This document shows positions 36,372 through 57,220 of a DNA stretch of 64,000 nucleotides, one piece after another; within the stretch, counting starts at the first letter, position 1; every line of letters starts with the position of its first letter. The stretch lies in assembly GCA_964016885.1 (NCBI GenBank), contig OZ024743.1, forward strand, positions 87,358,001 to 87,422,000. The letters are read 5' to 3'. This DNA is from Eledone cirrhosa. Lineage: Eukaryota. The notes under the pieces were generated by a model. It ran no database searches. It saw only the letters and a program-made list of their open reading frames with translations, and was not told the DNA's origin. Both the position numbers and the translations under genes were made by a program.

Positions 36372-39300
36372 GTCAGGTCACCAGTTGGTGCTACTGGTAA
36401 CATGTATCCCAGTACAACCTGTCCCATGGTCGGGTCGTTGGCGACTAAACTGGCAACCCCACCAAGGTTTCTTGGTGAGGAGGGTGACTTTGGACATCCT
36501 GCAGGACTAAAAACAAAACCTGTCAAAGGGCAAAGGAGCTCTTAAGAGTCAATGGCCATCCAAAATCACCGGGAGAGATGACCCCTTAGCCTTTGTCAAG
36601 GCAGAATTCTAGGAGAAGGAAAACTCTGATGGTATCCAATGATGTTGACTTGTTCTTCTTTTTGGTAAATATCATCTTGGTTAAGAGAGTGGGACTGGCT
36701 TTGCGCAGTGCCTTTGCTCACTATAAAAGCTTCACGGCACAGGTATTGCTTTATATCTGGAGATCTCTCTGCACTTATCATCTTGATGTGGAACTCTGGC
36801 TGGCTGTAGCCTAAAAAGGCAAACTACATTACAATGAAGGTACCTAACACAATTGAAGTAAATGGCTATAAGGGCTCTGGATCAGCATCATGTGAAAGGG
36901 TCTTGCCCGGCAGGTGTCCCAGGGCGCCGCAGTCTGGGCCCAGTCGTCATCAGTCTACTGTGTGTAAACCACTCAATTTTGCGTGCTGGAATGTGCGTAC
37001 TTTGCTTGATATTGAAACAAATGTACAGCGACCTGAAAGAAGATCGGCATTGGTTGTCAAGGAGCTCAGGCGTTATGATATGGATGTTGTGGCCCTCTCA
37101 GAAACTCGATTTCATGGTGAGGGCCATTTCACAGAGAAGTCCGGTGGATATACGTTTTTCTGGAGGGGAAGGAAGGAGGGGGGGGGGGGGGGGGCTGGTG
37201 TCGCTTTTGCCATAAAAACAGTTATAACAGACCATCTTCAGGAGCTTCCGACAGGCGTTAGTGACAGACTGATCACTGTGAGAGTTCCTCTAGAGGGTGG
37301 AAGATATGCAACCGTGATTGGTGCTTATGCACCAATTATGGAATGCATTGATGAAGCAAAGCAGGCTTTTTATGACGAATTAAAGTCTCTTGTCTGGAAA
37401 GTGCCTGGAGCAGACACAATTTTCATTCTTGGAGATTTTAATGCTCACGTGGGCCGTGATTGTGAGACCTGGAGAGCTCTGGGCAAGCATGGGGTCGGAA
37501 AGTGCAATGGCAATGGACTCTTGTTATTGTAAATGTGCACTGAGCTGGACTTGTTCATTGGCAGCACTATGTTCCAACAGAAGGACAAATACAAGACAAC
37601 ATGGATGCATCCTGGATCGAAACAGTGGCACCTGATTGATTATGTCCTTGTGAGGCGGCGGGATGTACAGGATCTGTGCAGTGTTCGTGTGATGCGTGGA
37701 GCAGAGTGTTGGACCGACCATCGTCTGGTGAGAACAAGAGCAATATGTGTAGTTCGTAAAAGGGAGAAACAGCGAGAGGTATCACTTCCGAAACGGCTGA
37801 ACGTTACCCGTCTGAAGGATCCTGAAGTCAGAGAAAATCTGGTTAAAAAGATGGATGCATTAGAGTGCGGAAATGACTGGACTTCCTTTAAGGAGGCAGT
37901 TTATGGGGAATGTGCTGATGTTGGATTCGCGGATAAGAAGCATCAGGATTGGTTTGACCAAAATGACAAGCTTATAGACAAGCTTTTGGAGGAGAAACAT
38001 ATGCTCCATTCCGCATTGCTTGGTAGTGATTTAAGCACCGATCGGCAGAAGACAATCGCTGATAAGCTGAAGCTCGTAAAAGCTGATGTGCAACGAAAAT
38101 TGCGTGAAATGAAGAATAAGTGGTGGAATGACAAAGCCGATGAAATACAACTTGCGTCGGATGTGAAGGACGTTAAGGCAATGTATAATCTTCTTCATGA
38201 AGTGTATGGACCACCTACATCACCAGTTGCGCCTGTTAGGACAAAGGATGGCAATCAGCTCCTTAGAGATCCCAATGATATCCTGTTGAGATGGCGGGAA
38301 CACTTTGACGAGCTTCTCAATATGGATTCATAGGTTGACGAAGAATTTATCAGGTCCATACCTGATAAGCCAGTAAAGGAAATCCTTGCTGAGCCTCCAA
38401 CGATCGAGGAGGTTAAAAGTGCTGTCAGGAAACTCAATGGTGGGAAGTCGCCTGGATTGGATGGGCTGTATGCTGAGATCTTGAAGCACGGTGGAGAGAA
38501 TCTCTTGCACAGACTTCATTCTTTGGTTCTGGATGCCTGGAACAACAATCATATACCCGATGACTGGAAGGATGCTGTGATGGTTGTTTTGTACAAGAGG
38601 AAGGGAGACAGGGATAACTGCGGAAACTATCGTGGGATATCAGTGTTGTCTGTTGTCGGCAAAGTTCTCTGTAGAATTCTGATGGACCGTTTATTGCTCC
38701 ACATTGCTGATGAAGCTCTACCAGAGTCGCAATCGGGTTTTCGGGCTGACAACTGCAGGAAAAGTGTGTTGATCAGAATGTGGATCTCTACCAGGTGTTT
38801 GTTGATCTGACAAAGGCGTTTGACACGGTCAACAGAAAGGCTTTATGGGATATCCTGAGGAAGCTGGGGGTGCTCTGAGAAGTTTGTTTCCATTTTGCGT
38901 TTGTTTCATGATGACATGAATGCATGGGTAAATGTTGGTGGAAAGCTCTCTGAGCCGGTGACGGTCGAAATGGAATCAAACAGGGTGACATTCCAGCTCC
39001 AACGCTCTTTGCTTTGTACTTCTCCATTGTCTTTGAACAGGCCTTCGGGAACTACAATTATGGTATATATGTTCGCTATCGATCAACTGGAAAGCTGTTT
39101 AATATCAGGAGGGTCAATGCTAAGTCAAAGGTTCACTTGTCACTAATCAGGGATTTGCTTTATGCAGATGACTGTGACCTGGTAGCGCACATGGAGATTG
39201 ATATGCAGCATCTCATGGATGCATTTTCTAATGCGTGTACTGCATTGGGACTTACCATAAGCCTGAAAAAGACAGTAGCCATGTACCAACCAGCCCCTGG

Positions 39301-40388
39301 GAAGCCATGTTGTGAGCCCAACATCTTGGTTTATGGTGAAAGGCTAAGGGTCGTTGGCAGTTTTGTATATCTTGGAAGCACTCTGAGTATGTCCTGCGAT
39401 CTTGATGGGGGAATATCAAACAGGATACAGAAAGCCAGTGATGCGTTTGGAAAACTGAACAAGCGTCTCTGGTCTCAACACGGAATTTCGGTAAAGACAA
39501 AGCTCAAAGTGTATCATGCGTGTGTGCTCGCGGCACTTTATGCTTGTGAGACGTGGGTGGTCTACCGTAGACAGATGAAGCGACTTGAGAGGTTCCACCA
39601 GTACTGTTTACGTCGGATCCTTGGCATAACTTGGCAAATGTTTGTCAGTGACGACGAGTTCTGGACAGAAGTGGCTGTGATAGTGTCCAGTCCTTGAATT
39701 TGAAACATCAGCTGCGCTGGACAGGCCATCTTGTAAGGATGAATGACAAGCGAATGCCGAAGCAGCTGCTTTATGGCGAGCTCCAAATGGGAAAAAGGAA
39801 CGCGAGCAAACCCAAGATGCGTTTTAAGGACTGTATCAAGGGGGCGCTCAAGAAAAGTAACATCCCTTGTGAGCACTGGGAAGCATGTGCTAGCGACCGA
39901 TCGCATTGGAGGAAAGCAGTGGCTAGTGGTAAGAGTCTATATGAGGAAACAAGAAGGCACGCGACACTAAAAAGAGATGTCCAGAAAGGAATCCATGTTA
40001 GCCTTCCCGAAGGCACTGACAGACGACCTGACCTGACATGTGAGACCTGTAATAGGGTTTGTCTGAGCATGGCAGGTCTAAAGAGTCACCTGAGAGTGCA
40101 CAAGAACAGGGAAGCAGGCACCTGTGGAGCTATAAGTGTTCATCAGACGACGACATGTAATGTCTGTGGAAGGGTATGCAGGTCGAGTAGTGATCTCACA
40201 CGACACCTTGGGTCACATGGTACCATGGGCCCAGCACTAGGTGTCAATAATTGTCACAAGTATCGTGTTTGTACCAGAGTTTTCAAGTCGCTGGCTGGAC
40301 TAAAATGTCACACTCGTTCAGCAGTAGGGGTTCTCCTACATGGATATAAAGTAGTGGCCGTACTCGAAAGCGAGTTGGCAGCCACCAT
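36372..40388 (+). mobile_element. Full-length RTE (BovB-like) LINE: 5' UTR, APE endonuclease, RT and three C-terminal C2H2 fingers; inactivated by stops and frameshifts
   Basis: ORF pieces 36834-37532 (WNVRTL, ALSETR, GDFNAH), 37533-38333 (IDYVLV, TDHRLV), 38457-38810 (NYRGIS), 39014-39697 (LLYADD, FVYLG), 39694 onward (LRWTGH, CETC..H...H, CNVC..H...H); ends GGCAGCCACCAT plus TA/TG tail. Confidence 0.96.
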
Positions 40389-56655: not shown

Positions 56656-56807
56656 GTATGTATGTATGTATGTATGTATGTATGTATGTATGTATGTATG
56701 TATGTATGTATGTATGTATGTGTGTGTGTGTGTGTGTGTGTGTGTGTGTGTGTGTGTGTGTACGTATGTATGTATGTATGTATGTATGTATGTATGTATG
56801 TATGTAT

Positions 56808-57220
56808 CCGGGAGAGATAACCTCTTAGCCTTTGTCAAGGCAGAATTCTAGGAGAAGGAAAACTCTGATATAACACCTGCAACCCTGATGGTATCCAATG
56901 ATGTTGACTTGTTCTTCTTTTTGTTAAATCTCATCTTGGTTAAGAGAGTGGGACTGGCTTTGTGCAGTGCCTTTGCTCACTATAAAAGCTTCACGGCACA
57001 GGCATTGCTTTATATCTGGAGATCTCTCTGCACTTGTCGCCACATGGTACCATGGGCCCAGCACTATGTGTCAATAATTGTCGCAAGTGTAGTGTTTGTA
57101 CCAGAGTTTTCAAGTCGCTGGCTGGACTAAAAAGTCACACTCTTTCAGCGCATCGGTAGGGGTTCTCCTACATGGATATAAAGTAATGGCCGTACTCGAA
57201 AACGAGTTGGCAGCCACCGT
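56808..57220 (+). mobile_element. Bipartite RTE-derived SINE, copy E (5'-truncated)
   Basis: Starts CCGGGAGAGAT within the tail of copy D. Confidence 0.93.

What the first reader, a model, noticed from the sequence alone, without database searches (positions are those of the whole stretch)
36372..57220. An RTE LINE and five copies of its bipartite internal-deletion SINE, stacked in their own microsatellite tails
Seen: a ~610-bp element made of the first ~410 bp of the LINE 5' UTR fused at CTGCACTTGTC|GTCACATGG to the last ~180 bp of the LINE. It occurs five times (48730, 52961, 55062, 56046, 56808), always on the + strand, each preceded by TATG/TA repeats and followed by a (GTAT)n or TA/TG tail. 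All copies share the junction and 3' end but show four different 5' start points, and the spacers between them differ. The LINE copy lacks about 20 bp (ATAACACCTGCAACCCTGAT) present in every SINE copy, so this copy is not the direct parent. Established: variable 5' truncation marks target-primed reverse transcription, and bipartite RTE derivatives exist (e.g. Bov-A from BovB). Inference: this LINE/SINE pair prefers (TATG)n-type targets and deposits the same repeat as a tail, so each insertion creates the next landing site and builds a head-to-tail array.
Basis: partly seen in the sequence, partly recalled or inferred. Interest (0 to 1): 0.75.

Follow-up and report, generated by a model that had tools for sequence, protein, structure and literature searches.

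The report
Microsatellite-seeking RTE mini-element stacks
A 610-base cut-down copy of a jumping gene, present in tens of thousands of copies, sits mostly inside TA/TATG simple repeats and piles up head-to-tail there, likely because new copies keep landing in the same scarce repeats rather than because each copy lays down a new tail.

Summary
Observation confirmed. The five copies are a bipartite, ORF-less derivative of the RTE-type LINE at 36372-40388. The junction occurs 15,018 times exactly in the genome, against 20 for the LINE's own 5' junction. In a sample taken by position, 74 of 97 copies sit in TA/TG-type repeats (background 5%), with a strong strand-fixed preference for (TATG)n; 34 of 97 have a family neighbour within 900 bp, 33 on the same strand. 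Neighbours are no closer in sequence than random pairs, and copy 3 is identical to a copy on another contig, so repeated insertion is the main builder. Two corrections. The 'tail' is mostly a ~10-nt target duplication plus leftover target, not a deposited repeat. Neighbours share rare variants about 4-6 times too often, so local DNA exchange also contributes. The LINE lies 8 kb away and is not stacked; a Dong/R4-like element splits the same repeat on the other strand. Bipartite RTE derivatives, microsatellite-targeting LINEs and head-to-tail SINE multimers are each known; strong TATG targeting by an RTE-type family was not found in the papers searched. The scan noted related stacks elsewhere in this genome (e1-8894651, e1-9815366). 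Interest 0.42.

The parts
36372..40388 (+). Full-length but decayed RTE-type LINE (APE endonuclease, RT, C-terminal C2H2 fingers), broken by stops and frameshifts; lacks 20 bp in the 5' UTR and 5 bp near the 3' end; partner family, not the parent copy
   Evidence: ORF pieces, Pfam Exo_endo_phos and zf-C2H2, RVT_1 in sister copy L063, about 94% identical to other full-length copies, flanked by a near-perfect ~15-nt direct repeat
48651..48729 (+). (TATG)20 tract upstream of copy 1; preceded at about 48632-48650 by a stub resembling the 3' end of this group of elements
   Evidence: the stub assignment is by eye
48730..49198 (+). Copy 1, 5'-truncated at element position 142; shares rare variants with copies 2, 4 and 5
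49199..49276 (+). (GTAT)n tract after copy 1, used on the opposite strand by the Dong/R4-like element
49277..52232 (-). 5'-truncated RLE-type (Dong/R4-like) LINE with CATA/TATG repeat on both sides; its family ends in CATA-type repeat in 30 of 30 top hits (one is this copy)
   Evidence: RVT_1 and zf-RVT; CCHC and PD..D motifs read directly, clade label recalled; flanks
52234..52960 (+). (GTAT)n then TA-rich tract upstream of copy 2
52961..53369 (+). Copy 2, 5'-truncated at position 202 (truncation hot spot), followed by (GTAT)20
53450..53682 (-). 233-bp internal piece of another young high-copy repeat (99% identical to many loci), between copy 2's tract and the 1.4-kb TA-rich tract
   Evidence: no Pfam hit
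53683..55061 (+). 1.4-kb TA/TG-rich tract upstream of copy 3
55062..55671 (+). Copy 3, full length, young sublineage; identical to a copy at G000:C2:488572 with other flanks, 3.0-4.4% from its neighbours
55672..56045 (+). 374-bp TA/TG spacer between copies 3 and 4
56046..56655 (+). Copy 4, full length; its 3' part reads as the last C2H2 finger, stop codon and about 60 nt of UTR
56656..56807 (+). 152-bp (GTAT)n/(GT)n spacer between copies 4 and 5
56808..57220 (+). Copy 5, 5'-truncated at position 198; its exact 5' junction occurs once in the assembly; sits at the right end of the tract

Best explanation
The 610-bp element is a protein-less internal-deletion derivative of an RTE-type LINE that sits mostly in TA/TATG microsatellites, in one orientation on (TATG)n, and the stack likely formed by repeated independent retrotransposition into one tract, with some later local DNA exchange. 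Shown: 5' UTR plus last zinc finger and 3' UTR joined at a 2-3-nt microhomology; tens of thousands of dispersed copies; ~10-nt target duplications; variable 5' truncation; orientation-fixed clustering. Inferred: the LINE protein binds the RNA's 3' end in trans, nicks the CATA/TA strand, and primes by pairing the RNA's ...CCAU(GUAU) end with the nicked strand, which fixes orientation. Each insertion splits a tract and duplicates about 10 nt of it, so both sides remain targets. Perfect TATG runs are scarce and many already touch a family copy, so newcomers often land next to older ones. Unequal crossover or gene conversion between neighbours then shares variants and sometimes duplicates units.
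For: Exact junction 15,018 times against 20 for the LINE 5' junction; exact 3' end 21,853 times, about 41,000 estimated. Position-based sample from C1: 74 of 97 copies (46 of 50 full-length) have TA/TG-type repeat at -24..-4, against 5.1% of windows in 400 kb of evenly spaced control DNA. (TATG)3 within 30 nt upstream in 34 of 94 against 0.13%; (AT)6 in 20 of 94 against 4.1%. G exceeds C upstream in 84 of 97. 11 of 99 gaps are under 2 kb against 0.54 expected, 11 of 11 same strand; beyond 100 kb 31 of 62. Genome-wide short head-to-tail joints: 66 with 4-15-nt spacers and 87 with 16-20, nearly absent below 8-12 nt as a target duplication predicts; tail-to-tail only 9 loci. No-tail direct repeat of 10 nt or more in 43 of 86 against 16+-3 shuffled (max 25); imperfect-motif ones 14 against 2, mode 10 nt. 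At L113 the duplication includes the first bases of the downstream copy, so the upstream copy arrived later by its own insertion. Neighbour distance 0.037 against 0.034 for random pairs, p=0.50, 33 pairs. Copy 3 is identical to a dispersed copy; six near-identical dispersed relatives have differing 3' flanks. About 18% and 20% of the 692,985 (ATGT)5 sites are estimated to lie just downstream and upstream of a copy; 6 of 21 tracts in a census touch one.
Against: Local pairs share rare variants too often: 34 of 105 against 5.8% of random pairs; in the position-based sample 12 of 47, and 3 of 47 share two or more; the five window copies share 4 against 0.59 expected, P=0.018. The AU test does not reject a clade of the five copies (p=0.43) or of four without copy 3 (p=0.50) on 47 rows; the tree is star-like and has little power. 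14 of 97 copies sit in a tract starting at an own-family 3' end, about twice my crude estimate of 7.6% (P=0.015). 36 of 86 copies have no no-tail repeat of 8 nt or more, and several have pure (GTAT)n 3' flanks unmatched on the 5' side, including copies 2 and 4 here and L005. The sample is the first 36.5 Mb of C1 only, and the control windows hold three times fewer (ATGT)5 sites per Mb than the genome, so the TATG enrichment may be 90-fold rather than 270-fold. No intact LINE ORF among 30 loci (longest 863 codons). Survival bias (insertions elsewhere purged) was not tested.
Confidence: 0.75

Rival explanations
1. Tail-deposit feedback: each insertion copies a (GUAU)n tail from the RNA and so creates a new TATG site, which the family then prefers.
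For: Pure (GTAT)n 3' flanks without a matching 5' flank in 12 of 27 copies with a TATG-type 3' flank; L005 begins its 3' flank like copy 3 and unlike its own 5' flank; own-tail stacking about twice the crude expectation; RTE elements are reported to create SSRs between the TSDs (PMC2887409, passages).
Against: The reverse mismatch is as common (TATG on the 5' side only, 10 of 25). The first four 3' bases follow the 5' flank: GTAT in 66 of 81 TATG sites, ATAT in 22 of 34 TA sites, with no evident link to six lineage markers. Up- and downstream tracts are of similar length (medians 40 and 46.5 nt) and 18 of 110 downstream tracts are 14 nt or shorter. 62 of 97 copies sit in tracts that do not begin at a family end.
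Confidence: 0.15
2. The array grew mainly by tandem DNA duplication or unequal crossover of one or two insertions, with the truncations arising at microhomologies.
Against: Only 2 of 77 neighbour pairs are under 1% apart and 4 of 77 are nearest relatives; four different 5' starts and unrelated spacers; copy 3 belongs to a dispersed young sublineage; copy 1's shared variants do not fit one tree; target duplications that overlap a neighbour's end.
Confidence: 0.07
3. Insertion is near random and copies survive only in microsatellite-rich, neutral DNA, or the cluster is an assembly or polishing artefact.
For: Long TA tracts are hard to assemble; copy 1's mosaic of variants could come from read mis-mapping; long reads were not available.
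Against: Enrichment is at the exact junction and strand-specific; near-identical young copies show it too; each copy has private variants; the joined form stands in contigs built from independent read sets; stacking is genome-wide.
Confidence: 0.03

Closest known systems
Bipartite ORF-less non-autonomous RTE LINEs (Bov-A, RTESINE1/2, WALLSI3, MAR4_MD; Kojima 2018, PMC5786205, passages read)
   Same: Only the 5' and 3' parts of an RTE-type LINE, made by internal deletion, keeping the LINE's extreme 5' end; no small-RNA head.
   Different: The passages read report no microsatellite targeting or stacking. Here the 3' part includes the last zinc-finger codons, and the derivative outnumbers LINE 5' ends about 750 to 1 by exact matches.
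Microsatellite-targeting non-LTR retrotransposons Waldo (ACAY), Mino (AC), Kibi (TC), Koshi (TTC), Dong (TAA) (Grandi and An 2013, PMC3812793, passages)
   Same: Insert into existing microsatellites and interrupt them; orientation-fixed on an asymmetric repeat.
   Different: No RTE-clade element is in that list. Here the preference is graded (TATG strongest, TA and mixed TA/TG also used, about a quarter of copies outside the threshold), not a single motif.
RTE insertion signature Tn-TA and 3' repeat/target pairing (Nishiyama and Ohshima 2018, PMC6007223; PMC13295347; passages)
   Same: TSD length near 10-12 nt; 3' microhomology between RNA end and target; proposed role of 3' repeats in site choice or priming.
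   Different: Those elements carry their own short repeat tail and insert in ordinary DNA; here whole microsatellite tracts are the target and a template tail is usually not detectable. The Tn-TA motif itself was not tested.
Head-to-tail SINE multimers B2, Dip, Ves (PMC8466645, passages; PMC10702118, passages)
   Same: A large share of copies (40% B2, 49% Dip) lie in same-strand multimers of up to eight units.
   Different: Those are Pol III SINEs with A-rich tails; the authors left open whether multimers come from insertion into tails. Here independent insertion is shown for some pairs and local exchange for others.
RTE-2_OV of Octopus vulgaris (Petrosino et al. 2022, PMC9115989, passages)
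   Same: Single-ORF RTE with C2H2 finger and a microsatellite at the 3' end.
   Different: Four published primers match this LINE at 12-15 of 19-20 bases only; here a stop codon and about 60 nt of UTR precede the repeat. A different family.

Membership tests
Bipartite ORF-less non-autonomous LINE | Made only of the 5' and 3' parts of an autonomous LINE | tested here: met
   Positions 1-431 and 429-610 match the two LINE ends at 92-93%; joint seen in read-derived contigs
Bipartite ORF-less non-autonomous LINE | Keeps the LINE's extreme 5' end and encodes no protein | tested here: met
   Same first base as LINE copies; only 39 terminal codons of the ORF remain
Bipartite ORF-less non-autonomous LINE | Amplified as its own unit by retrotransposition (dispersed copies, TSD, 5' truncation) | tested here: met
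   15,018 exact junctions; 47 of 97 truncated; direct repeats above shuffles
RTE clade LINE (partner) | Single ORF with APE endonuclease and RT, no separate ORF1 | tested here: met
   One frame carries Exo_endo_phos then RVT_1 from about 460 nt after the 5' end in L063
RTE clade LINE (partner) | RT phylogeny places it in the RTE clade | tested here: inconclusive
   Homologues (best 61% identity) carry no clade names; no named reference set was available, so no tree; the RTE label rests on architecture and recalled motifs
SINE in the strict sense | Pol III small-RNA-derived head (tRNA, 5S, 7SL) | tested here: not met
   ARAGORN 0 genes; no Rfam match near a gathering score; the whole sequence is accounted for by the LINE
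Microsatellite-specific non-LTR retrotransposon (Waldo/Kibi/Dong type) | Most copies inserted in microsatellites | tested here: met
   74 of 97, 46 of 50 full-length, against 5.1%
Microsatellite-specific non-LTR retrotransposon (Waldo/Kibi/Dong type) | One repeat motif as the target | tested here: not met
   (TATG)3 upstream in 34 of 94, (AT)6 in 20 of 94, the rest mixed or other
Microsatellite-specific non-LTR retrotransposon (Waldo/Kibi/Dong type) | Sequence-specific nicking by the endonuclease | not testable with these tools
   Needs a cleavage assay; priming by base pairing could give the same bias
RTE with 5' self-cleaving ribozyme | HDV-like or twister fold at the 5' end | tested here: inconclusive
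   No ribozyme family in Rfam searches; the first ~100 nt are conserved across older relatives and predicted to fold into a three-way junction plus stem-loop; by eye no canonical catalytic core
Retroposon-derived satellite (tandem DNA amplification) | Neighbours are each other's closest relatives with shared breakpoints | tested here: not met
   Distances equal random pairs, four different starts; but a clade is not formally rejected and rare variants are shared in excess
RTE-2_OV | Sequence identity with the published element | tested here: not met
   Four primers match at best 15 of 20; the full sequence was not found in the 4 of 8 supplements searched

The most novel reading that the evidence does not exclude
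An RTE-clade APE endonuclease has evolved true (TATG)n specificity, and the family farms its own habitat: each insertion duplicates and protects a TATG run that slippage then lengthens, so that over a third of the genome's perfect TATG sites now touch this one family. A succession of older RTE derivatives with the same ends and an unrelated Dong/R4-like element on the opposite strand share these pads, forming polarised multi-family stacks that local recombination can turn into satellites.
Probability: 0.3. Interest if true: 0.65.

Novelty: new variant of a known kind. Interest (0 to 1): 0.42.

Why it matters
It gives a high-copy natural system for a standing question about RTE elements: whether site choice comes from the endonuclease or from pairing between the RNA's 3' end and the target. 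With tens of thousands of copies, target and tail can be separated statistically, and here the flank follows the target. It also addresses a point left open for B2 and Dip multimers (insertion next to an older copy versus duplication): both happen, and insertion appears to dominate. In practice, much of this genome's TATG microsatellite is tied to one retroposon group, which matters for marker design, assembly and repeat annotation. Each ingredient is known from other organisms, which limits the surprise.

Tried and rejected
Ribozyme at the 5' end: Rfam searches on copy 3 and three loci with older relatives gave no ribozyme family; manual fitting of HDV and twister layouts (recalled) failed on core positions. 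tRNA head: none. Identity with RTE-2_OV: rejected by primers. Multimer export of the copy 4-5 pair: copy 5's exact 5' junction occurs once; a diverged multimer would be missed. Special preference for the first register after an older copy: spacers of 12 and 16 nt are equally common (41 and 44), so the edge at 12 reflects the duplication, not a hot spot (the two patterns differ in length). Tree-based test of a clade: uninformative. Sequencing runs: no RNA holder listed. Runs labelled as other organisms hold the element as low-depth contigs with little or none of the LINE body, and a raw-read run of one such organism had no read on it; I did not use them as evidence of range or transfer. A search of a published MELT table for TSD motifs was not completed. 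Repbase/Dfam could not be queried, so the family may already have a library name. Literature searches for an RTE element targeting TATG or for this cephalopod-type family found none; the library lacks most subscription papers. Four of eight supplements of PMC9115989 and two oversized files were not seen and may hold the RTE-2_OV sequence.
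Full report
1. Observation. The window is G000:C4:87358001-87422000 of a 3.0-Gb animal genome; that it is an octopod is my inference and was not tested. 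Self-comparison and alignment confirm five + strand copies at 48730, 52961, 55062, 56046 and 56808, starting at element positions 142, 202, 1, 1 and 198 and ending together. Positions 1-431 match the LINE's 5' end and 429-610 its 3' end. LINE copies read ...CTTGTC(A/G)TC-TTG on the 5' side and ...TTGGGTC-ACATGG on the 3' side, so the deletion joins at a 2-3-nt microhomology. The 3' part encodes the last C2H2 finger, a stop codon and about 60 nt of UTR; the window LINE's 5-bp loss removes that stop from the frame. The window LINE lacks the 20 bp that 17 of 20 other LINE loci carry, so it is a decayed copy and not the parent.

2. Surroundings. Only copies 3, 4 and 5 are separated by microsatellite alone (374 and 152 bp). 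Between copies 1 and 2 lies a 5'-truncated minus-strand LINE with RT, CCHC and PD..D motifs (the Dong/R4 label is recalled). All 30 top hits of its 3' end, one of them this copy, run into CATA-type repeat, and every nearby copy of the RTE derivative was on the opposite strand. So copies 1 and 2 likely shared one TATG tract that this element split. A 233-bp piece of another young repeat lies after copy 2. The RTE-type LINE is 8.3 kb upstream, beyond a 27-bp minisatellite and a second LINE family at 44540-46945 that is flanked by (TA)n and only 29% identical over the RT region.

3. Family size. The exact 26-nt junction occurs 15,018 times, the exact 33-nt 3' end 21,853 times and the LINE's own 5' junction 20 times. 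Scaling by the share of sampled copies that match exactly gives about 18,000 junction-bearing copies and 41,000 3' ends (the scaling sample is biased towards junction-exact copies). Full-length LINE copies are 92-94% identical to the window's, and none of 30 loci had an intact ORF (longest 863 codons). Contigs from independent read sets show the same joint.

4. Target. I fetched DNA for 97 of the first 100 exact-junction copies on C1 and 40 evenly spaced 10-kb control windows. 74 of 97 copies, and 46 of 50 full-length ones, have TA/TG-type repeat at -24..-4, against 5.1% of control windows; G exceeds C upstream in 84 of 97. (TATG)3 lies within 30 nt upstream in 34 of 94 against 0.13%, and (AT)6 in 20 of 94 against 4.1%. 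The control windows hold three times fewer (ATGT)5 sites per Mb than the genome, so the TATG enrichment is 90- to 270-fold and the TA enrichment about 5-fold. The LINE does the same: 7 of 9 copies with an intact 5' end pass the threshold. 47 of 97 copies are 5'-truncated, and 11 of 43 truncations fall at positions 196-208 (p about 2e-6), where copies 2 and 5 start; a stall at the end of the conserved 5' domain is my guess.

5. Tail. If the element laid down a (GTAT)n tail, the 3' flank should follow the lineage. It follows the site. In the 86 copies kept (3 of 89 dropped as inversions or internal matches), a direct repeat of 10 nt or more starting at the element's terminal AT is found in 43, against 16+-3 (max 25) in 300 shuffled pairings; repeats with imperfect motifs number 14 against 2, mode 10 nt. 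Over all loci, the first four 3' bases are GTAT at 66 of 81 TATG sites and ATAT at 22 of 34 TA sites, and six near-identical relatives of copy 3 have differing flanks. TATG on the 3' side only (12 of 27) is as common as on the 5' side only (10 of 25). Against this, 36 of 86 have no such repeat of 8 nt or more, and copies 2 and 4, L005 and several others look like true tail additions. Tract slippage blurs both readings.

6. Stacking. 11 of 99 gaps between listed copies are under 2 kb against 0.54 expected, all on the same strand; 34 of 97 have a family 3' end within 900 bp, 33 on the same strand. Genome-wide there are 66 head-to-tail joints with 4-15-nt spacers and 87 with 16-20 (4 control hits), against 9 tail-to-tail loci with 2-17. 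Spacers are rare below 12 nt and equally common at 12 and 16. 14 of 97 copies sit in a tract that begins at an own-family end, 4 at an older relative's end, 62 in other tracts and 17 in none. About 18% of the genome's 692,985 (ATGT)5 sites are estimated to lie just downstream of a copy and 20% just upstream; 6 of 21 tracts in the first 2.9 Mb of C1 touch a copy. A crude model of TATG targeting alone predicts 7.6% own-tail stacking against 14% seen (P=0.015), so most but perhaps not all stacking needs no self-preference.

7. Insertion or duplication. Neighbours are as distant as random pairs: medians 0.037 and 0.034, p=0.50, 33 pairs in the position-based sample; over all loci 2 of 77 pairs are under 1% apart, both at L015, a clear tandem duplication. 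Copy 3 is identical to a copy on C2 and 3.0-4.4% from its neighbours. At L113 the target duplication includes the first bases of the downstream copy, which only a later separate insertion explains. But local pairs share rare variants in 34 of 105 cases against 5.8% for random pairs (12 of 47 in the position-based sample), and the five window copies share 4 against 0.59 expected (P=0.018). Copy 1 shares two with copy 4 and one each with copies 2 and 5, a pattern that fits no single tree. The AU test on 47 of 113 rows did not reject a clade (p=0.43). I read this as insertion first, then gene conversion or unequal crossover in roughly a fifth of local pairs.

8. Mechanism. Inferred, by established TPRT: a Pol II transcript starting at or just upstream of the element and running into the downstream repeat is taken up by the LINE protein; the endonuclease nicks the CATA/TA strand; the RNA's ...CCAU end pairs with the nicked strand, fixing orientation; second-strand nicking about 10 nt away gives the duplication. 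Full-length copies often carry phase-breaking extra bases at the 5' junction (TTAT in 13 of 50), which fits carry-over from the source's upstream repeat better than a precise ribozyme cut. Whether the enzyme or the pairing sets the preference is untested.

9. Known work. Bipartite RTE derivatives are an established class (PMC5786205, passages). Microsatellite-targeting elements are listed for other lineages (PMC3812793, passages). RTE TSD lengths and 3' repeat/target pairing are described (PMC6007223, PMC13295347, passages), as are RTE-made SSRs (PMC2887409, passages) and SINE multimers (PMC8466645, PMC10702118, passages). The O. vulgaris repeat annotation lists active RTE and Dong-R4 families (PMC13282606, part 1 of 3). 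RTE-2_OV is a different family (PMC9115989, passages and 4 of 8 supplements searched). Nine searches found no report of an RTE-type family targeting TATG; Repbase and Dfam were not available. Earlier notes of this scan describe related stacks and TA-seeking RTE LINEs in the same genome; they are not independent support.

10. Verdict. Real, well supported, and a new variant of known kinds. Targeting and stacking hold; tail deposit is the exception; local exchange is a second contributor. Interest 0.42.

Noticed in passing
window 49277-52232 (-); loci L266-L295: RLE-type (Dong/R4-like) LINE family whose 3' ends run into CATA-type repeat in 30 of 30 top hits, on the strand opposite to the RTE derivative wherever both occur; 7 of 30 have a young derivative copy within 1.5 kb downstream.
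   Followed up: partly
L016, L020, L011, L201, L210; G000:C1 loci L059, L098, L177, L180: At least two or three older element families share the first ~190 nt (about 80-85% identical) and end in GCAGCCATCAT plus TATG repeat; they occupy the same tracts, suggesting a succession of microsatellite-seeking RTE derivatives.
   Followed up: partly
element positions 196-208 (window 52961, 56808): 5' truncation hot spot: 11 of 43 truncated copies start here, just after the domain conserved among the older relatives.
   Followed up: partly
element positions 1-100 (window 55062-55160): Conserved 5' domain predicted to fold into a three-way junction plus a long stem-loop, with one T-G/G-T to C-G/G-C change between families; no Rfam match.
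   Followed up: partly
window 44540-46945 (+): A second, 5'-truncated LINE family with a 744-codon open frame (RVT_1), flanked by (TA)n on both sides, its stop codon directly before the repeat.
   Followed up: partly
window 47195-48630: Degraded RT-like fragment resembling a Penelope-type element (recalled resemblance; no Pfam hit above cut-off).
   Followed up: no
window 41333-42935, with short pieces at 43778 and 44356: 27-bp AT-rich minisatellite of about 58 copies, with fragments of the same unit at the borders of nearby insertions.
   Followed up: no
window 53450-53682 (-): Isolated 233-bp internal piece of a young repeat (99% identical to at least 40 loci) wedged between two microsatellite tracts.
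   Followed up: partly
L002-L006, L011: Young sublineage of copy 3 (one identical copy on C2, others about 98-99.8% identical) although no intact partner LINE ORF was seen among 30 loci; the protein source for these recent insertions is unexplained.
   Followed up: partly
L086-L090 (G000:C12:17.03-17.49 Mb): Identical 2.3-kb LINE fragments repeated about every 60 kb: a large tandem segmental array.
   Followed up: no
L010, L064, L080, L169, L179, L233, L235: One other repeated sequence often begins right after TATG tracts; probably the 3' end of a further CATA-tailed element on the opposite strand.
   Followed up: no
L058, L112, L146, L154: Several copies show 5' inversions of the twin-priming type, and some 3' ends show a repeated CCA, consistent with slippage at initiation.
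   Followed up: no
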